This document shows positions 2,532 through 9,486 of a stretch of 64,000 bases of DNA, one piece after another (the stretch's first letter is position 1; each line of letters opens with the position of its first letter). This DNA comes from Escherichia phage vB_EcoM-Ro157lw: sequence record MH051335.1. The stretch is one strand, 5' to 3'. The notes under the pieces are model-generated. The model was not told the DNA's origin. It saw only the letters and a program-made list of their open reading frames with translations, and did no database searches. The translations under genes were made by a program, and so were the position numbers.

Positions 2532-2771
2532 TTAAAGCATTCCGTGCTGAAGGTCGAGCTTTCTTGCGGCAAACGACCTGGCACGGAATCGCTTACCCGC
2601 CCTTACTGCCTGTCGAATTTTCTTTTGCAAACACTTACGGTCAAAATCGTTGCGGTCGACGGCTTCGAGTAAATCGCGACGCAGTGCACCCAGTGTCGAC
2701 TTATCGGAGACTTCGACGCCGAGCGCGGCTGCAACATCTTTCAAAACATCGAGTTCGGTTAAAGTTCTCAT
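2532..2771 (-). CDS. hypothetical protein (79 aa) with SAP/HeH-like N-terminus and basic C-terminus
   Basis: ORF antisense to the structural operon; N-terminal LTELDVLKDVAAALGVEVSDKSTLGALRRDL resembles a helix-extension-helix DNA-binding motif. Confidence 0.35.
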   Translation of the reverse strand: MRTLTELDVLKDVAAALGVEVSDKSTLGALRRDLLEAVDRNDFDRKCLQKKIRQAVRAGKRFRARSFAARKLDLQHGML

Positions 2772-3184
2772 TTAATAATCCCCTTGATGTCTGATTCTGC
2801 CATGAAGATTGGAGTGCCGCCGCCAGGAACAATCGAGCGCGTAACTTTGTCAAACATATCGTTTTCTTCAACTTGAATACGATAAAATTTATTTTTGGAT
2901 GAAGATGGGCACAATCCCATAAATTTGCCGATTCCGCGAACGCATTCATCTTCAAAGTATACTGTTTCACCTTGAATGGAGTCGATATTGTCTACTGGAT
3001 AGACTTTGCGACCCAACAACCACTCATCCAAAGTCGCCTGCAAGACGTTTCGCGCATCTAAAATCCACGGGTCAATAGTAGCACCTTCGTATCGCGCAGC
3101 AGTGGCCTTTGCCAGTTCTTCATATTCGCATACGTTAACGACTTCGCCGTTGTGTAGGACGACAAATACAATTGTTGTGCTCAT
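2768..3184 (-). CDS. hypothetical protein (138 aa)
   Basis: ORF with 4-nt ATGA overlap to the downstream gene; AT-rich promoter region upstream at 3185-3313. Confidence 0.45.
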   Translation of the reverse strand: MSTTIVFVVLHNGEVVNVCEYEELAKATAARYEGATIDPWILDARNVLQATLDEWLLGRKVYPVDNIDSIQGETVYFEDECVRGIGKFMGLCPSSSKNKFYRIQVEENDMFDKVTRSIVPGGGTPIFMAESDIKGIIK

Positions 3185-3308: not shown

Positions 3309-3346
3309 ATAGATTGATTCCCTTTCACTGTCAGGTGGCGTTAACA

Positions 3347-5722
3347 ATGAAAATTCTTGGCATAAAACTCTGGGAGAAGACGCAACCAGAAGCCGAACCA
3401 GCGGAGATGCCGCCAGGCGACCCATTGGCACCGTTTGAACGCCTTGAAAGGCGCGGCAGCGGTCAACGCTGGGAAAAGACTGAAAGCAATCGACCGACCT
3501 TTAAAACGGTTGATGACTTCCCTTTATATGAGCCTGATATTAATGGCGATGGTGTTGCAATCATAAAAGGTCGTTCAGTCGATTCCGCAACAGTATCCAA
3601 AAAGGTTATGGATAATGCCTTAAAGAACATCAGTTCAGAAGGGCAAGTCAACCCATACACAGTACCTATTCAACTTCAAAACTGGTATTTGTCACAGTCA
3701 TTCATCGGCTATCAAGCTTGCGCAATTATAGCGCAGCACTGGCTGGTGAACAAGGCTTGTTCCATGGTAGGCCGCGATGCGGTCCGTAAAGGCTGGGAAG
3801 TTAAATCCAGTTCTGAGTCAGAATTGTCAGTACAAGCCAGCGAACGCCTAAAGCAAATTGATAAAGAATTTAATATCAAAGAGCACTTAGTTGAAGCCGA
3901 ACGATTCAAAAATATTTTTGGTATCCGCGTCATCATATTTGATGTGCGTAGCGATGACCCAGAATATTACAGCAAGCCTTTTAACATTGATGGTGTGACA
4001 AAGGGGTCTTATAAGGGAATCATTCAGGTTGACCCTTATTGGATGATGCCATTTTTGACGTCTGAAAACACCGCCGACCCTGCATCACAGCACTTCTATG
4101 ATCCAGAATACTGGGTGATCAGTGGACAACGTTATCATCGAAGTCACCTCATCATCTTGCGCAATGATGAGCCAGCTGATATTCTCAAGCCAACTTATAT
4201 TTACGGCGGCATTCCTCTGACTCAGCAGATTTATGAACGCATCTATGCCGCTGAACGTACCGCTAACGAAGCGCCATTGCTGGCGATGTCCAAGCGTACA
4301 ACCACGCTGCGGACCGACGTTGACAAGGCTATTGCCAATGAGCGGTCTTTTGCAGAACGTCTGATGATGTGGATCAAGTACCGCGACAACTATGCAGTCA
4401 AAGTGCTTGGCCAAAAAGAAGAGATGGACCAGTTTGACATCAACTTGTCAGACTTCGACAGCATCATCATGAACCAGTACCAGCTTGTGGCCGCAATCGC
4501 AAAAGTTCCGTCGACCAAACTGCTTGGGACTTCGCCAAAAGGCTTTAACGCCACTGGTGAATTCGAGATGGTCAGCTATCACGAAGAGTTGGAAACGTGC
4601 CAGCAGCATGACCTGACAAAAATTCTCGACCGCCATTACAAAATCCTTCTCAAATCAGAAGGGGTGGATGTCGATGTTAAGGTTGCATGGGAACCAGTTG
4701 GCTCACTTACTGCTACTCAACTTGCAGAAATCAATGATAAGCGAGCCAACACTGGCAAAACTCTTATTGATGCTGGCGTCATTTCTCCTGATGAAGAGCG
4801 CGACCGCATCAAAGACGACAAAAACAGCGGCTACAACCGTCTGCCGGAAGACGCAGCAGAAGAAACCCCAGGGATGTCTCCAGAGAATATGGCATTGCTT
4901 GGCAAGTCTGCTGGTGAAGTCCTGCAAGGTAAGGCCGATATTGAACAGGCGAAAGCTGATGTCGTTAAGATGGGCGGCCAGTTCTATAGCGAAACAGGTA
5001 TTATGCCAGAGGGTGCCGCGCGTGGTGAGTTGGCGGAAAACCCTGACAAGGCGCCTGTCGAAATCAACATGGACGATACCGATGATGAATCAAGCCATCA
5101 GGTTGATGTCCTAACGCAGTTGAAAGAAGGGCTGGAGGGTATTGCGGATTACTACCTGAAAGAAGGTCAGGATGTGGATTTTGACCCTCAAAAAGATTCA
5201 CGGTCGGTGCAACCGTCTACCCTTCCAAGCGTTAAAGGACACGTCGTCAACTTACGCCACAACGTGGGTAAAATGGACGCAGCATCATTACCTAAGATGA
5301 AGTTGCACGGAATGATTCTTGGCATTGAGAATCCGCGAAACAGCATTCGTAGAGGAAACAGCCTTGACGGTGAATGGGCCGTGAAGATGCCGCACCACTA
5401 CGGATTCATCAAGGGCACCAAGGGCGCAGACGGTGATGAAGTCGACTGCTTTGTGGGTCCAAATCTGAAGTCGCCGAAAGTCTTTATCGTGAACCAAAAC
5501 GATAACTACTCTGGCGAGTTTGATGAACACAAGTGTATGCTTGGATTCGATTCAGCAGAAGAAGCGAAAGAAGCTTATCAAGCATCATTTGGTAACGGTT
5601 GGAACGGATTCGACTCAATCCACGAATTAGATGTGAACTCATTCAAGGAGTGGTTGAAGGGTGATTGCTCTCAAGCATACGGAGCACTCAATAATCCTAC
5701 TAATTCACCGAAGCAAGGTTGA
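3347..5722 (+). CDS. portal protein with C-terminal inorganic-pyrophosphatase-like extension
   Basis: About 790 aa immediately after the terminase; RBS AGGTGG before ATG 3347; C-terminal 130 aa carry the DGDEVDC motif matching the family I pyrophosphatase signature. Confidence 0.75.
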   Translation: MKILGIKLWEKTQPEAEPAEMPPGDPLAPFERLERRGSGQRWEKTESNRPTFKTVDDFPLYEPDINGDGVAIIKGRSVDSATVSKKVMDNALKNISSEGQVNPYTVPIQLQNWYLSQSFIGYQACAIIAQHWLVNKACSMVGRDAVRKGWEVKSSSESELSVQASERLKQIDKEFNIKEHLVEAERFKNIFGIRVIIFDVRSDDPEYYSKPFNIDGVTKGSYKGIIQVDPYWMMPFLTSENTADPASQHFYDPEYWVISGQRYHRSHLIILRNDEPADILKPTYIYGGIPLTQQIYERIYAAERTANEAPLLAMSKRTTTLRTDVDKAIANERSFAERLMMWIKYRDNYAVKVLGQKEEMDQFDINLSDFDSIIMNQYQLVAAIAKVPSTKLLGTSPKGFNATGEFEMVSYHEELETCQQHDLTKILDRHYKILLKSEGVDVDVKVAWEPVGSLTATQLAEINDKRANTGKTLIDAGVISPDEERDRIKDDKNSGYNRLPEDAAEETPGMSPENMALLGKSAGEVLQGKADIEQAKADVVKMGGQFYSETGIMPEGAARGELAENPDKAPVEINMDDTDDESSHQVDVLTQLKEGLEGIADYYLKEGQDVDFDPQKDSRSVQPSTLPSVKGHVVNLRHNVGKMDAASLPKMKLHGMILGIENPRNSIRRGNSLDGEWAVKMPHHYGFIKGTKGADGDEVDCFVGPNLKSPKVFIVNQNDNYSGEFDEHKCMLGFDSAEEAKEAYQASFGNGWNGFDSIHELDVNSFKEWLKGDCSQAYGALNNPTNSPKQG

Positions 5723-5723
5723 T

Positions 5724-6575
5724 ATGGCTTTTAAAGCTTCGAAAAAACGTGAACGCCGCTCACCCGATAGAATCGGGCGCGGCAGTCCGATAATCCCATC
5801 AAACGCTATTGCGATGGCCTACCGTCGTGAGATGAAAGGTCTTTGCTATGCGATGATTGATGACTATCAGGCAGGAATTTCAGAGTGGCTTGAAAAGAAG
5901 CAGGTGCAGAAGTTCTTTGCGCAAGACTCTGCTGATTCAACATTCCAAACTCTTATGAAACGTCTGCAGCTGAAATGGGCAAAGGCGTTTGCTCGTGTTG
6001 GGTCGAAGATTGCCGCTGATTTTATCAAGTCGGTTGAAAAGGGTGCTACTTCTGCTACATTCGCCAGCCTTAAGTCCGCAGGCATAGAAGCGCCAAAGGC
6101 CACATATAACAAATTCGTTGAGAACACTCTTAGAACAAGCGAGACGTTTAACACGACTCTAGTGACTAAGGTCGGCGAGGATATTCACAACAGAGTGTAC
6201 GAAGCAGTCATGCTTTCGCTGACTTCGCCCGACCCAGCCCAGCAAGGCACGTCAGGCATTCAGGCGGCGCTGCGAAACGTAAAACACTTCTCTGCAAAGA
6301 GAGTCGACTTAATCGCTAAAGACCAGACAAGCAAATTGTATTGCGTTCTAAGCGATGAAAGGATGCGCCAGAATGGAGTTGAAGAATTTGAATGGGCGCA
6401 CTCAGGAGCAGGAAAGGAGCCGCGAATCTCTCATGAACACGTCGACGGAATGAGATTTAAACTTGATGACAAGCGCCTATGGGAAGTTGGCGGAGAATTG
6501 AAGTTCAAAAAGGGTGACATCGGTCCTCCTGGATGGGCAATACACTGCAAGTGCAGGAAAATACCAATCATTTGA
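5724..6575 (+). CDS. head morphogenesis protein (SPP1 gp7 / Mu gpF-like minor head protein)
   Basis: Position directly after portal; basic N-terminus; C-terminal ...GWAIHCKCRK typical of this family. Confidence 0.55.
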   Translation: MAFKASKKRERRSPDRIGRGSPIIPSNAIAMAYRREMKGLCYAMIDDYQAGISEWLEKKQVQKFFAQDSADSTFQTLMKRLQLKWAKAFARVGSKIAADFIKSVEKGATSATFASLKSAGIEAPKATYNKFVENTLRTSETFNTTLVTKVGEDIHNRVYEAVMLSLTSPDPAQQGTSGIQAALRNVKHFSAKRVDLIAKDQTSKLYCVLSDERMRQNGVEEFEWAHSGAGKEPRISHEHVDGMRFKLDDKRLWEVGGELKFKKGDIGPPGWAIHCKCRKIPII

Positions 6576-6582
6576 GGTCATT

Positions 6583-7503
6583 ATGACGATACCAATCAGC
6601 ACGTTTCCTATATCTGGACAAACGCCAGTATTACCTGCTGTATATGCGAACGGTTTGGCGATTGTTTCAGAATTTACATCCGATAAAAATTTGATTGTTC
6701 CATTGAGTCCGCCATTGGCATCTGGATACAATTCAGTCGGCCAATTCTTTATGATCGGTAATGATGGCGATTCTACCAGCAAGCCGAATCTGACACTTTC
6801 AGTTCCCAAAATGGACATAACAGACGTGCAGACTGGTTTAACTGCATCTACAATCACCATCGCTTTTGGAGAAGCGGTGATTATAGGCATGGAGTCTGGA
6901 GGGTCCAAGAATGCTGTCGCCGTTAAGGTAGTCAAATCCAGCGGCAACCAATACACGTTACCAGCGGCAACGGCTTCTGTTCTCGGCGGCGTCAAGATAG
7001 GAAGTGGCATAAGTGTTGCAGGTGACGGTACAATTAGTGTTACTCAATACTCGTTACCGATTGCATCAGCATCAACCTTGGGTGGCGTAAAAGTAGGAAC
7101 GACACTATCAATTGATGGTTCTGGCGTCCTTAATGCTGCTGCAAGCACTGTGCAGAACGCAAGCAACAGCGTAAGCAATCCTCCGACAACTCTGGTGAAT
7201 CTGGCAACCTTAAACCTGCCTGCAGGGAAATGGCTTGTGACAGCAAGTCAGTTGACTGTCGCGACAGAAGGAGTTCAAGCGAATACCGGAATTACAGTAA
7301 AATTGTCAACAAGTAATTCAGATATTACGGATGATGCATTCACGATGTCTGCTGGCATTCGGGCTGCAGGTCGTTTCGGCGGCAATATTCCAACAAAGAT
7401 AATTACTCTTGCCGCGCCTGGCAACGTGTATCTAAACTATCAATGCACAGACGCATTGACATCTACCGTTTACGGACAGATCACCGCAATTAAGTTGAAC
7501 TAA
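6583..7503 (+). CDS. virion structural protein with internal S-x-LGGVK-x-G repeats (fibre or decoration-like)
   Basis: Repeats ASVLGGVKIGSGISVAGDGTISV and ASTLGGVKVGTTLSIDGSGVLNA; Gly/Ser/Thr-rich composition. Confidence 0.45.
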   Translation: MTIPISTFPISGQTPVLPAVYANGLAIVSEFTSDKNLIVPLSPPLASGYNSVGQFFMIGNDGDSTSKPNLTLSVPKMDITDVQTGLTASTITIAFGEAVIIGMESGGSKNAVAVKVVKSSGNQYTLPAATASVLGGVKIGSGISVAGDGTISVTQYSLPIASASTLGGVKVGTTLSIDGSGVLNAAASTVQNASNSVSNPPTTLVNLATLNLPAGKWLVTASQLTVATEGVQANTGITVKLSTSNSDITDDAFTMSAGIRAAGRFGGNIPTKIITLAAPGNVYLNYQCTDALTSTVYGQITAIKLN

Positions 7504-7965: not shown

Positions 7966-8073
7966 TAAGGCGCGGCTATATCGGTTGTTATACATATTCA
8001 AACCATAATTATTGTTTGCCTAAGTTTTTTTCATTAGATATAATACACAATACTTATTTGAGGGTGGATGCGA

Positions 8074-9486
8074 ATGCAAACGGCACGCGAAATTGACAAA
8101 AATGGATTCTTGACGATTGTGGGTTGTCCCATTTCGTCATTTGGCATTTTTGATTATTCTGCAGGTCAGGTTGGACTTGATGGTGATCCGAATCGCATCG
8201 TAAAAGTTTATCGCCCAGAGTCAGCGGTGAAAGACCCCGAAGCGATAGATTCATTCAAAAATATCCCTTTCATCGACAATCACGAAATGCTTTCTGGATT
8301 CGAAGGTGATGAGGATAACACAGCACCCGAAGAGTATGGCGTTGATGGCGTTCTGACTGGCAATGTTTATTATGACAAGCCATGGATGCGCGGCGACCTT
8401 AAAGTTTTTAGCCGTCGTCTGAAGAAGGCCATCGATTCTGGAAAGGTTGACTTGTCTTTGGGCTATGACTGTGAATTCATCATACAGTCTGGAGAGTTTG
8501 ACGGGCAGCCGTATGAAGTGGTACAGACAACTCTTCGCGGCAACCACATTGCTCTCGTGGACGTTGGTCGAGTACCAGGTGCACGGGTGCTGGATGGTCG
8601 TTGCTTTGACCATCTTTGTTTGACGACTGTAACACCATCCAACGAGGATTTAGACATGCCAAAACCGTTAAAAGGTAAAGCGCGTGATAATGCTGTTGAA
8701 CAGCTGAAATCACTGATCCCTGCGCTCGAACAATTTCTGAATGAAGAGAGCACCGAAGCTGCTCATCAGGACGAAGTTGAAGTGAAAGCAGAAGAGAAGG
8801 ATTCAACCGAAGAACGTGAAGAAGTGATGGTTGATCCAGAAGTCAAAGCAGAAGCTGAAGAGACTCCAGAAGGTGAAGAGAAGTTTGAAGTTGAAACTGA
8901 ATCTCACGCTGGCGGCGAGCTTCCGCAACTGATCAGCCAAATCGAAGCACTTATTGCAAAACTGAAAGGTGGCGCGGTAGGTGATGAAGAAGAAGTTGAA
9001 GCCGAAGTCAAAGACGAAGAAGTTGAAGTCAAGGCTGAAGATGTATCACCTTGCGACAAAGCTGAAGATGTGGTTAGCGGCCTGCAAAACAGCAACGTAA
9101 AGGGGGCTTCGGTCGAAAAAGATGACAAACCGACAAAAGCGGCGAAAGCGTCGCCAGGTCCAGCAAAAGGGGAACACTCAATGGCATCTGATTCAGCAGT
9201 TGCTGCTTTCTACGCTGATTCTGCTCGTAAGAATAGCCTCTACCAGCGCCTGTCTAAAGTTGTTGGTGCCTTTGATCATGCAACTATGGACTCCAAGTCC
9301 GTAGCGAAATATGGCGCTAAAAAGTTAGGCTTGAAGTGCGTTGATGGTGCTGAGTTTGACGTGGTGGATAATTATCTGCGCGGCGTTGAACACGGTCAAA
9401 AACAGCGTGTAGTCGCAAAACAAAAGGCCGCTGCGGATTCTGCAGCAACTGACGAAGCATTTGAAGCTTGGTTGAAAGGGGAATAA
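8074..9486 (+). CDS. scaffolding protein with acidic coiled-coil central region; possible N-terminal prohead-protease-like domain
   Basis: Sits between portal/head morphogenesis and capsid genes; long Glu-rich low-complexity segment; ATG 8074 has better RBS spacing than 8068. Confidence 0.5.
   Translation: MQTAREIDKNGFLTIVGCPISSFGIFDYSAGQVGLDGDPNRIVKVYRPESAVKDPEAIDSFKNIPFIDNHEMLSGFEGDEDNTAPEEYGVDGVLTGNVYYDKPWMRGDLKVFSRRLKKAIDSGKVDLSLGYDCEFIIQSGEFDGQPYEVVQTTLRGNHIALVDVGRVPGARVLDGRCFDHLCLTTVTPSNEDLDMPKPLKGKARDNAVEQLKSLIPALEQFLNEESTEAAHQDEVEVKAEEKDSTEEREEVMVDPEVKAEAEETPEGEEKFEVETESHAGGELPQLISQIEALIAKLKGGAVGDEEEVEAEVKDEEVEVKAEDVSPCDKAEDVVSGLQNSNVKGASVEKDDKPTKAAKASPGPAKGEHSMASDSAVAAFYADSARKNSLYQRLSKVVGAFDHATMDSKSVAKYGAKKLGLKCVDGAEFDVVDNYLRGVEHGQKQRVVAKQKAAADSAATDEAFEAWLKGE

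What the first reader, a model, noticed from the sequence alone, without database searches (positions are those of the whole stretch)
5290..5722. Portal protein carries a C-terminal inorganic-pyrophosphatase-like domain
The portal ORF is about 790 aa, far longer than typical portals. Its last 130 residues contain YGFIKGTKGADGDEVDCFVG, matching the family I soluble pyrophosphatase signature D-[SGDN]-D-[PE]-[LIVMF]-D-[LIVMGAC], and a C-terminal AEEAKEAYQASF block resembling the AEAAKAEIVASF helix of E. coli Ppa. A pyrophosphatase fold fused to a portal is not something I can place in a described family; it could be an enzymatic or a degenerate structural module at the DNA-translocation vertex.
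Basis: partly seen in the sequence, partly recalled or inferred. Interest (0 to 1): 0.7.

Follow-up and report, generated by a model that had tools for sequence, protein, structure and literature searches.

The report
Portal protein with pyrophosphatase-like cargo domain
The portal protein of this E. coli phage (genus Wifcevirus) does end in a domain related to inorganic pyrophosphatase, but the domain and its fusion to portals were described in 2017 and are standard in PB1-like phages; what the domain does is still untested.

Summary

The claim of novelty fails. Iyer et al. 2017 described InPase, including portal fusions (BcepF1). All 120 best full-length homologues carry both domains, among them the Pbunavirus portals E217 and Pa193 gp19, whose cryo-EM maps show no density for this region.

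The domain is not degenerate. All 18 residues invariant across 164 diverse copies are present, and it is as conserved as the portal core (50-67% identity, against 15-23% for the linker). It is not lost from virions: published mass spectrometry of CsCl-purified ECML-117 found six peptides inside it.

Distant relatives encode it as a separate gene immediately after the portal gene. Others append an ADP-ribosyltransferase or a topoisomerase IB domain after it.

Best reading: a metal-dependent phosphoanhydride hydrolase carried as capsid-interior cargo. Its substrate and its release are inferred, not shown. Already known; interest is low to moderate.

The parts
3333..3338 (+). Ribosome-binding site AGGTGG, 8 nt upstream of the true ATG start
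   Evidence: Read directly from the sequence. The start agrees with the Bas99 annotation and with the 791-aa database protein P0291.
3347..5722 (+). Portal-InPase gene (791 aa plus stop codon)
   Evidence: Matches PHROG 4660 along its full length. It is 97-99% identical at nucleotide level to Wifcevirus phages.
3347..3664 (+). N-terminal region (aa 1-106). Poorly conserved, low model confidence, and not modelled in the E217/Pa193 maps
   Evidence: Peptides aa 12-32 and 45-53 were nevertheless detected in ECML-117 virion preparations.
3665..4960 (+). Portal core (aa 107-538): PF06381 Phage_portal_3, including the start of the C-terminal barrel helix
   Evidence: PF06381 at E 3e-88. Aligns with E217 gp19 chain 8FVH residues 1-431. 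56-66% identical to relatives.
4880..4996 (+). Long C-terminal helix (aa 512-550), equivalent to the crown/barrel helix that projects into the head in E217 and Pa193
   Evidence: AF2 helix H512-550. E217 and Pa193 descriptions of the barrel.
4997..5290 (+). Acidic, variable linker (aa 551-648). Disordered segments flank one conserved amphipathic helix
   Evidence: 15-23% identity to relatives, with length variation. pLDDT below 50 for aa 552-579. Net charge -11. No cryo-EM density for the homologous region.
5084..5155 (+). Conserved helix within the linker (aa 580-603; L..L...L pattern followed by PEGxD)
   Evidence: AF2 helix H580-603, pLDDT 75-91. Conservation pattern seen in 57 portals. Function unknown.
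5291..5659 (+). InPase domain (aa 649-771): PF18823, family-I-pyrophosphatase-like fold
5429..5449 (+). DGDEVDC (D695, D697, D700): the PPase signature PS00387, the presumed metal-binding and general-base aspartates
   Evidence: The only match in six frames. Aligned with E. coli D65/D67/D70 by phmmer, hmmsearch and hhalign.
5660..5719 (+). Short variable C-terminal tail (aa 772-791). In some relatives this is the point where further effector domains are attached
   Evidence: 0-30% identity. Peptide aa 772-789 was detected in virions. ART or TopoIB extensions in P0026, P0030, P0306 and others.
5724..6575 (+). Downstream gene for a MuF-like minor head protein. The order portal, InPase, MuF is conserved
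   Evidence: PF04233. The same order, with InPase as a separate gene, occurs in L002 and L003.

Best explanation
The last ~125 folded residues of the portal protein are an InPase domain (Pfam PF18823), a shortened offshoot of family I inorganic pyrophosphatases. It keeps the acidic metal-binding core and is most likely an active Mg2+/Mn2+-dependent phosphoanhydride hydrolase.

The domain follows the portal's crown helix and a flexible acidic linker of about 100 residues. Twelve copies per virion should therefore hang inside the capsid above the portal channel. On this reading the portal C-terminus serves as a packaging anchor for cargo.

The most likely use is at the start of the next infection. 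After release from the portal, the domain would leave with the DNA. It would then hydrolyse pyrophosphate or a nucleotide-derived phosphoanhydride in the host, either helping early nucleic-acid synthesis or removing a defence signal.

Shown here: homology, fold, conservation of the catalytic core, presence in virion preparations, and linkage to the portal, either fused or adjacent.

Inferred: catalytic activity, the substrate, and release and ejection.
For: - Homology: PF18823 at 157 bits. The InPase profile against a PPase profile gives 93% probability, E 2.7e-7.
- Catalytic core: 18 residues are invariant in 164 diverse copies. In the 802-aa ORF numbering they are E672, R679, G681, W688, Y696, G697, D706, D708, D711, G715, Q728, D737, E738, K740, G744, A751, Y755 and W780. 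All are present here, and the core residues are invariant or nearly so in 57 portal fusions.
- Selection: the domain is 50-67% identical across relatives, like the portal core (56-66%), whereas the linker is 15-23%.
- Location: in E217 and Pa193 the modelled portal ends at residue 528, in a barrel that projects into the head. Residues 529-765 have no density.
- Presence in virions: in CsCl-purified ECML-117, 6 peptides lie within aa 653-789 and 7 within the linker, with peak areas equal to or above those of core peptides.
- Cargo logic, relatives: some relatives carry portal-InPase-ADP-ribosyltransferase or portal-InPase-TopoIB.
- Cargo logic, other contexts: the domain also occurs in giant polyvalent proteins, including a PHROG annotated DarB-like. 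One stand-alone copy lies among genes with LydB and DarA_N domains, as in the phage P1 dar region.
- Linkage to the portal: stand-alone InPase genes sit directly after portal genes with ATGA overlaps.
- Prior proposal: Iyer et al. 2017 proposed the same delivery model and the same candidate substrates.
Against: - No enzymatic assay of any PF18823 member was found.
- Several PPi-binding residues of E. coli Ppa (E31, R43, D97, Y141/K142) have no clear equivalent. PPi itself may therefore not be the substrate.
- A domain still tethered to the portal cannot reach the host. About 100 extended residues span roughly 350 A, while the tail is about 1300-1500 A long.
- No cleavage is shown. Tryptic peptides cover linker aa 542-637 almost continuously, which leaves only aa 530-541, 617-619 and 638-652 as possible quantitative cleavage sites.
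- The virion preparation also contained some non-structural proteins.
- No PADLOC or anti-defence family match was found.
Confidence: 0.5

Rival explanations
1. The domain never leaves the capsid. Twelve tethered copies plus acidic linkers form a protein mass above the portal barrel. This mass would have a structural or regulatory role in genome packaging, retention or ejection, for example organising the last-packaged DNA end or binding metal ions. Catalysis would be irrelevant, or directed at something inside the head.
For: - The domain is covalently linked to the portal in every one of the 120 closest homologues.
- No cleavage is detected, and linker peptides are nearly continuous in virion mass spectrometry.
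- The tether is too short to reach the cell.
- The E217 barrel changes state with DNA ejection.
- The TopoIB appended in P0030 could in principle act on DNA at the portal.
Against: - The residues that are invariant across thousands of non-portal contexts, including free 140-aa proteins and giant polyvalent proteins, are the catalytic-type acidic residues. This points to an enzyme whose function does not depend on the portal.
- Distant relatives encode the domain as a separate protein.
- The ADP-ribosyltransferase variants need host protein targets.
- No ordered density is seen in two high-resolution virion maps.
Confidence: 0.2
2. The domain works in the producing cell late in infection as an extra pyrophosphatase. 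It would act on small molecules either before the portal is assembled or from inside porous procapsids, pulling DNA synthesis and other PPi-releasing reactions forward. Fusion to the portal would simply be co-expression.
For: - Iyer et al. list PPi clearance as one possibility.
- The split versions are translationally coupled to the portal gene and carry no obvious targeting peptide.
- Wifcevirus phages are reported to replicate extremely fast.
Against: - E. coli already has an abundant and efficient Ppa (established knowledge).
- A 1:1 stoichiometry with a low-copy structural protein is a poor way to supply a metabolic enzyme.
- The family is associated overwhelmingly with virion or late-gene and head-internal cargo contexts.
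- Part of the PPi-binding residue set is missing.
Confidence: 0.2
3. The resemblance is a chance motif or a decayed remnant with no function.
For: The classical PPase model PF00719 scores below its cut-off, and TM-scores to solved PPases are only 0.4-0.49.
Against: - PF18823 matches at E 3e-46.
- 11,272 cluster representatives match the domain.
- All family-invariant residues are kept.
- Conservation equals that of the essential portal core.
- The model is confident.
Confidence: 0.02

Closest known systems
Portal proteins of PB1-like myoviruses: Pseudomonas phages E217 and Pa193 gp19 (PDB 8FVH, 9B41), Burkholderia phage BcepF1 gp124, Serratia phages Hera and MTx
   Same: Full-length homologues (9B41: E 5.6e-251, aligned over aa 14-779). 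They share the architecture PF06381 core, barrel, variable linker and PF18823 domain. BcepF1 is the example named by Iyer et al..
   Different: About 50% identity. The linker and N-terminus are essentially unrelated in sequence. The host is E. coli/Shigella. Nothing differs in kind.
InPase domain of phage polyvalent proteins (Pfam PF18823; Iyer, Burroughs, Anand, de Souza and Aravind 2017)
   Same: Same domain family and the same invariant residues. It occurs in phage virion or late-gene contexts and is predicted to be packaged cargo.
   Different: The portal-associated clade matches the Pfam model only from position ~12. It lacks the N-terminal GNYKKGH-type motif seen in most polyvalent copies. 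Here it is the only passenger domain, rather than one of 2-15.
Family I soluble inorganic pyrophosphatase (E. coli Ppa, PF00719, EC 3.6.1.1)
   Same: - Same fold class: a beta-barrel followed by helix, strand, helix.
- Exact PS00387 signature.
- Plausible equivalents of E20, K29 (as Arg), Y55, D65, D67, D70, D102 and K104 (plus inference from secondary-structure order).
   Different: - About 125 residues rather than 175.
- Eleven fewer residues between the E20 and Y55 equivalents.
- No clear equivalents of E31, R43, D97 or Y141/K142.
- New invariant residues W688, Q728, E738 and W780 (802-aa ORF numbering).
- PF00719 scores below its cut-off.
- Never assayed, and fused to a structural protein.
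Capsid-packaged enzymes delivered with phage DNA (T4 Alt, P1 Dar proteins, N4 virion RNA polymerase, MuF-fused toxins)
   Same: These are enzymes carried inside the head and used in the first minutes of infection. The same domain occurs in a PHROG annotated DarB-like and next to LydB/DarA_N genes. Relatives append an Alt-like ADP-ribosyltransferase.
   Different: Those proteins are free or scaffold-targeted inside the head. Here the enzyme is covalently joined to the portal, which stays with the capsid, so a release step would be needed. None has been shown.

Membership tests
Pfam PF18823 InPase (pyrophosphatase-like domain of phage polyvalent proteins) | Profile HMM score above the curated gathering threshold | tested here: met
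   157.1 bits for the whole protein and 160.8 bits for the C-terminal fragment, against a cut-off of 26.8; E 3e-46 and 2e-47.
Pfam PF18823 InPase (pyrophosphatase-like domain of phage polyvalent proteins) | Family-invariant residues, including the conserved acidic residues said to coordinate two metal ions | tested here: met
   All 18 positions invariant in 164 diverse copies are present. In 57 portal fusions E661, R668, Y685, D695, D700, D726, E727 and K729 are invariant and D697 is conserved in at least 90% (791-aa numbering).
Pfam PF18823 InPase (pyrophosphatase-like domain of phage polyvalent proteins) | Shortened region between the first core strands compared with solved PPases (Iyer et al.: lacks a beta-hairpin insert) | tested here: inconclusive
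   The region from the E20 equivalent to the Y55 equivalent is 24 residues, against 35 in E. coli. The AF2 model still shows two short strands there.
Pfam PF18823 InPase (pyrophosphatase-like domain of phage polyvalent proteins) | Encoded among phage virion or late genes and packaged in the virion | tested here: met
   The head module runs TerL, portal-InPase, MuF, head fibre, DUF2213, cement protein, major capsid protein. Peptides were found in CsCl-purified ECML-117 and vB_Eco4M-7.
Family I soluble inorganic pyrophosphatase (PF00719 / PS00387 / EC 3.6.1.1) | PF00719 score above the gathering threshold | tested here: not met
   18.0 and 20.8 bits against 23.5. Only aa 690-714 (802-aa ORF numbering) align.
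Family I soluble inorganic pyrophosphatase (PF00719 / PS00387 / EC 3.6.1.1) | PROSITE signature D-[SGDN]-D-[PE]-[LIVMF]-D-[LIVMGAC] | tested here: met
   DGDEVDC at 5429-5449, the only match in six frames.
Family I soluble inorganic pyrophosphatase (PF00719 / PS00387 / EC 3.6.1.1) | PPase fold (twisted beta-barrel with two helices) | tested here: met
Family I soluble inorganic pyrophosphatase (PF00719 / PS00387 / EC 3.6.1.1) | Complete set of ~14 active-site residues (E. coli E20, K29, E31, R43, Y51, Y55, D65, D67, D70, D97, D102, K104, Y141, K142) | tested here: not met
   About 8 residues have plausible equivalents. E31 aligns with an invariant Gly, the D97 position is not conserved, and R43 and Y141/K142 have no clear equivalents. 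Outside the DGDxxD block the mapping is low-confidence.
Family I soluble inorganic pyrophosphatase (PF00719 / PS00387 / EC 3.6.1.1) | Hydrolysis of PPi to 2 Pi | not testable with these tools
   No assay of any PF18823 protein was found in the literature searched.
Phage portal protein, PF06381 / PB1-like gp19 type | Portal profile match and homology to a structurally solved dodecameric portal | tested here: met
   PF06381 at E 3e-88. 9B41 at E 5.6e-251 and 8FVH at E 9.5e-190.
Polyvalent proteins (Iyer et al. 2017) | Delivered into the host with the DNA at invasion | not testable with these tools
   This is inferred from context only. The tether length and the lack of demonstrated cleavage leave it open.

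The most novel reading that the evidence does not exclude
The portal-tethered InPase may not be a pyrophosphatase at all. It could be a virion-delivered hydrolase of a nucleotide-derived signal or alarmone, which would make it a new enzymatic class of anti-defence factor. Alternatively it could act at the portal itself during genome packaging or ejection. In either case the portal C-terminus would be a general docking site for capsid cargo, with ADP-ribosyltransferase and TopoIB as alternative passengers.
Probability: 0.15. Interest if true: 0.7.

Novelty: already known. Interest (0 to 1): 0.28.

Why it matters
This is a textbook-style instance of an architecture catalogued since 2017, so it is not a discovery. 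It still marks a real experimental gap. PF18823 is a very large family: 11,272 cluster representatives at 50% identity, and it is present in about 1% of cultured phage genomes, including the Pbunavirus phages used therapeutically against Pseudomonas aeruginosa. In the literature searched here it has no measured activity and no solved structure, and its fate at infection is unknown. Wifcevirus isolates that grow on engineered E. coli K-12 (BASEL phages Bas98-101) now make the question genetically tractable.

Tried and rejected
- **Residue mapping onto E. coli Ppa.** hhalign and hmmsearch align only the HYG...DGDxxD block with confidence. Downstream, hhalign pairs FDEHK with the E. coli loop YDHIK. 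I rejected this because FDEHKCML forms the second strand of a hairpin directly after the VNQN strand, so D726/K729 more likely correspond to D102/K104. Model coordinates are not exposed, so no superposition was possible.\n- **A diverse PPase profile.** A database search with E. coli Ppa returned only relatives of at least 82% identity, which was of little use.\n- **The AEEAKEAYQASF match to helix B.** Not supported.\n- **Evidence for cleavage.** The published peptide lists contain only fully tryptic peptides, which neither show nor exclude cleavage. The Pa193 supplementary MS tables are not held.\n- **Anti-defence or defence family match.** None in PADLOC.\n- **afdb50 fold library.** Unavailable.\n- **Literature on activity.** Nothing beyond Iyer et al. 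2017.\n- **An internal start producing free InPase.** Met643 lies where the split homologues begin, but the upstream GTGGGT is only weakly Shine-Dalgarno-like. Not pursued.\n- **dN/dS within Wifcevirus.** Not done, because cross-genus conservation already answers the question.
Full report
**What is there**

The window is almost a whole genome of an E. coli/Shigella myovirus of the genus Wifcevirus. The portal region is 97-99% identical at nucleotide level to vB_EcoM_WFH, ManiWeber/Bas99, ECML-117 and FEC19.

The ORF listed as 3314..5722 (802 aa from a TTG) really starts at the ATG at 3347, behind an AGGTGG ribosome-binding site. That gives 791 aa, matching the Bas99 annotation and a database protein that is 100% identical (P0291, 168 member sequences). 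Residue numbers below use the 791-aa protein unless stated otherwise.

The gene lies in a head module:
- TerL, 1068-2528
- two small reverse-strand ORFs
- portal, 3347-5722
- MuF-like minor head protein, 5724-6575
- head-fibre-like protein
- DUF2213/Pa193_gp24-family protein
- cement protein
- major capsid protein

**Checking the observation**

Pfam finds two domains. In the numbering of the 802-aa ORF they are PF06381 Phage_portal_3 at aa 133-479 (E 3e-88) and PF18823 "InPase" at aa 660-782 (157 bits against a 26.8-bit cut-off, E 3e-46). The InPase match corresponds to aa 649-771 of the 791-aa protein.

The classical pyrophosphatase model PF00719 matches only the signature block and falls below its cut-off (18-21 bits against 23.5). 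DGDEVDC (5429-5449) fits PROSITE PS00387 and is the only match in six frames of the window. So the quoted strings, the coordinates and the non-random similarity are all confirmed.

The second resemblance, AEEAKEAYQASF to the last helix of E. coli Ppa, is 7/12 identities but scores -1.0 bits. My recalled Ppa sequence was verified as identical to PDB 4UM4. By element order this helix is the first of two, so it is more likely the counterpart of helix A (inference).

**Fold**

An AlphaFold2 model of aa 639-791, built on 21 homologues, has mean pLDDT 90.9. It shows a run of beta-strands followed by helix, strand, helix.
- Foldseek against the PDB: the top 50 hits are all family I pyrophosphatases (probability 0.93-1.00, TM 0.31-0.49).
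- Profile-profile comparison of 164 InPase domains with a PPase alignment: 93% probability, E 2.7e-7, almost end to end.

The relationship is real but distant. No PF18823 member has solved coordinates. The only PDB sequence match is Pa193 gp19, and this region of that protein was not modelled.

**Is it degenerate?**

No. A search of 1.84 billion cluster representatives found 11,272 matches (9,366 at E <= 1e-10). Many lie in proteins of 2,000-6,400 aa.

In 164 diverse copies, 18 positions are invariant or nearly so (802-aa ORF numbering): E672, R679, G681, W688, Y696, G697, D706, D708, D711, G715, Q728, D737, E738, K740, G744, A751, Y755 and W780. All are present here. The core ones are invariant, or conserved in at least 90%, in 57 portal fusions.

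Against five portal-InPase relatives, the InPase domain is 50-67% identical and the portal core 56-66%. The linker is 15-23% and the barrel 9-41%.

Mapping to E. coli Ppa is confident for Y55, D65, D67 and D70. It is plausible for E20 and for K29 as Arg. From the hairpin topology it is also plausible for D102 and K104. E31 aligns with an invariant Gly, the D97 position is variable, and R43 and Y141/K142 have no clear partner.

The metal-binding and general-base core is therefore kept, but part of the PPi-binding shell is not. New invariant Trp, Gln and Glu residues appear. This is compatible with a phosphoanhydride substrate other than, or larger than, PPi (inference).

**It is a described family**

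Iyer et al. 2017 (PMC5512222) defined the InPase domain of phage "polyvalent proteins". They noted its shortened core and stated that versions are fused to the portal domain, giving BcepF1.124 as the example. They proposed injection into the host, followed by either hydrolysis of nucleotides made in response to infection or clearance of PPi.

BcepF1 is among the full-length homologues found here (P0320). All 120 best hits carry PF06381 plus PF18823, and one is annotated "inorganic pyrophosphatase". Among 50,697 cultured phage records, 470 hold the domain: 294 from Pseudomonas (mostly Pbunavirus), 70 from Vibrio and 26 from Escherichia. BFVD holds 23 viral models with the same fold, several named "Inorganic pyrophosphatase domain-containing protein".

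**Where it sits in the particle**

The protein is a full-length homologue of Pbunavirus portal gp19 (9B41 at E 5.6e-251; 8FVH). In the E217 and Pa193 cryo-EM structures the portal is modelled for residues ~94-528 of 765. It ends in a helical barrel that projects into the head, and residues 529-765 have no density.

A full-length AF2 model of this protein gives:
- a long helix at aa 512-550
- a disordered stretch at aa 552-579 (pLDDT below 50)
- a conserved amphipathic helix at aa 580-603
- a lower-confidence stretch to about aa 640
- a confident InPase domain (pLDDT 86-96)

The linker is acidic (net charge -11) and varies in length and sequence among relatives. The simplest picture is twelve domains on flexible tethers inside the capsid above the portal channel.

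**Is it kept in virions?**

Yes, as far as bottom-up proteomics can tell. Necel et al. 2020 (PMC7048862) analysed CsCl-purified vB_Eco4M-7 and ECML-117, which are 98% identical to this window. All 22 ECML-117 peptides assigned to the 791-aa protein match the window protein exactly:
- two in the N-terminal region (aa 12-32 and 45-53)
- seven in the core
- seven nearly contiguous in the linker (aa 542-637)
- six in the InPase region (aa 653-789), including the signature peptide GADGDEVDCFVGPNLK and the C-terminal peptide GDCSQAYGALNNPTNSPK

The peak areas of the C-terminal peptides equal or exceed those of the core peptides.

Whether the chain is still intact is not settled. Only aa 530-541, 617-619 and 638-652 remain as possible sites of quantitative cleavage. 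The preparations also contained a few non-structural proteins.

**Context in relatives**

- Three of the five stand-alone InPase genes I located lie immediately after a PF06381 portal gene in PB1-like head modules. Two have an ATGA stop/start overlap and one has an 89-aa ORF in between. Two of the three are followed by a MuF gene.
- Those portals are only ~20% identical to this one, yet their InPase proteins are 42-50% identical.
- A fourth stand-alone copy lies among genes with LydB and DarA_N domains, as in the phage P1 dar region.
- Some close relatives extend the fusion further: portal-InPase-ADP-ribosyltransferase in six of the best hits, and portal-InPase-topoisomerase IB.
- A (D/E)HPRxxNG(Q/K)F motif sits at the junction in 7 of 8 such proteins.

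Together these observations mark the portal C-terminus as a place where cargo enzymes are attached. They also show that InPase does not need a covalent link to the portal.

**Mechanism**

The most likely account is a metal-dependent phosphoanhydride hydrolase carried into the capsid on the portal and used at the onset of the next infection. This agrees with Iyer et al.

The weak step is release. A tether of about 100 residues cannot span a tail of 1300-1500 A, and no cleavage has been shown.

There are two serious rivals:
- The domain stays in the head and serves packaging, retention or ejection.
- The domain acts on small molecules in the producing cell.

A chance or decayed motif is excluded.

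**Verdict**

The novelty claim is wrong. The feature is already known from computational work and is annotated in public databases. Its biochemistry and its fate at infection remain open and testable.

Noticed in passing
Relatives P0026, P0030, P0306, P0312, P0346, P0361, P0390 (no counterpart in the window): Some portal-InPase proteins carry a further C-terminal domain: an ADP-ribosyltransferase (PF03496) or a topoisomerase IB. In 7 of 8 of them the motif (D/E)HPRxxNG(Q/K)F lies directly after the InPase domain. The motif is absent from the giant polyvalent proteins examined.
   Followed up: partly
L002 6367-8447; L003 6298-8435; L004 4376-6429: In distant PB1-like phages the InPase is a separate ~145-aa gene directly after the portal gene. 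L002 and L004 have an ATGA overlap; L003 has an extra 89-aa ORF in between. The InPase is 42-50% identical to the window's domain, while the portals are only ~20% identical.
   Followed up: partly
window 8068-9486 (+): This DUF2213/Pa193_gp24-family protein (472 aa) is annotated as a head maturation protease in Bas99 and vB_Eco4M-7, but was interpreted as a persisting scaffolding protein in Pa193. It is the protein with the most spectra (852 PSMs) in CsCl-purified ECML-117, with peptides along most of its length.
   Followed up: no
window 6514-7503 (+): A 329-aa ORF inside the head module has a weak match to PF11133, the head fibre protein family (E 3.5e-7). The orthologue in Bas99 is annotated as a tail fibre protein. 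Its listed start overlaps the end of the MuF gene.
   Followed up: no
window 2532-3184 (-): Two small reverse-strand ORFs (79 and 138 aa; hypothetical in Bas99) interrupt the otherwise co-directional terminase-portal head module.
   Followed up: no
window 5273-5275 (+), Met643 of the portal: An in-frame ATG lies 18 codons before the IENP strand, at the same position where the stand-alone InPase homologues begin. Only a weak Shine-Dalgarno-like GTGGGT precedes it, so there is no evidence of internal initiation.
   Followed up: partly
P0030 aa ~700 (relative, portal-InPase-TopoIB): In this variant the second aspartate of the DxDxxD block is Gln (GADGQDVDC), with an Asp shifted one position. This state is rare: 2 of 164 copies have Gln at that position.
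   Followed up: no
InPase family alignment, N-terminal 11 positions of PF18823: Most polyvalent-protein copies begin with a strongly conserved GNYKKGH-type motif. The portal-associated clade, both fused and adjacent, lacks it; the window has DAASLPK in its place. The role of the motif is unknown.
   Followed up: no
whole window (composition profile): GC skew and AT skew switch sign near 30 kb and again near 48 kb, consistent with large blocks of oppositely oriented genes. The 64-kb window covers nearly the whole ~68-kb phage genome.
   Followed up: no
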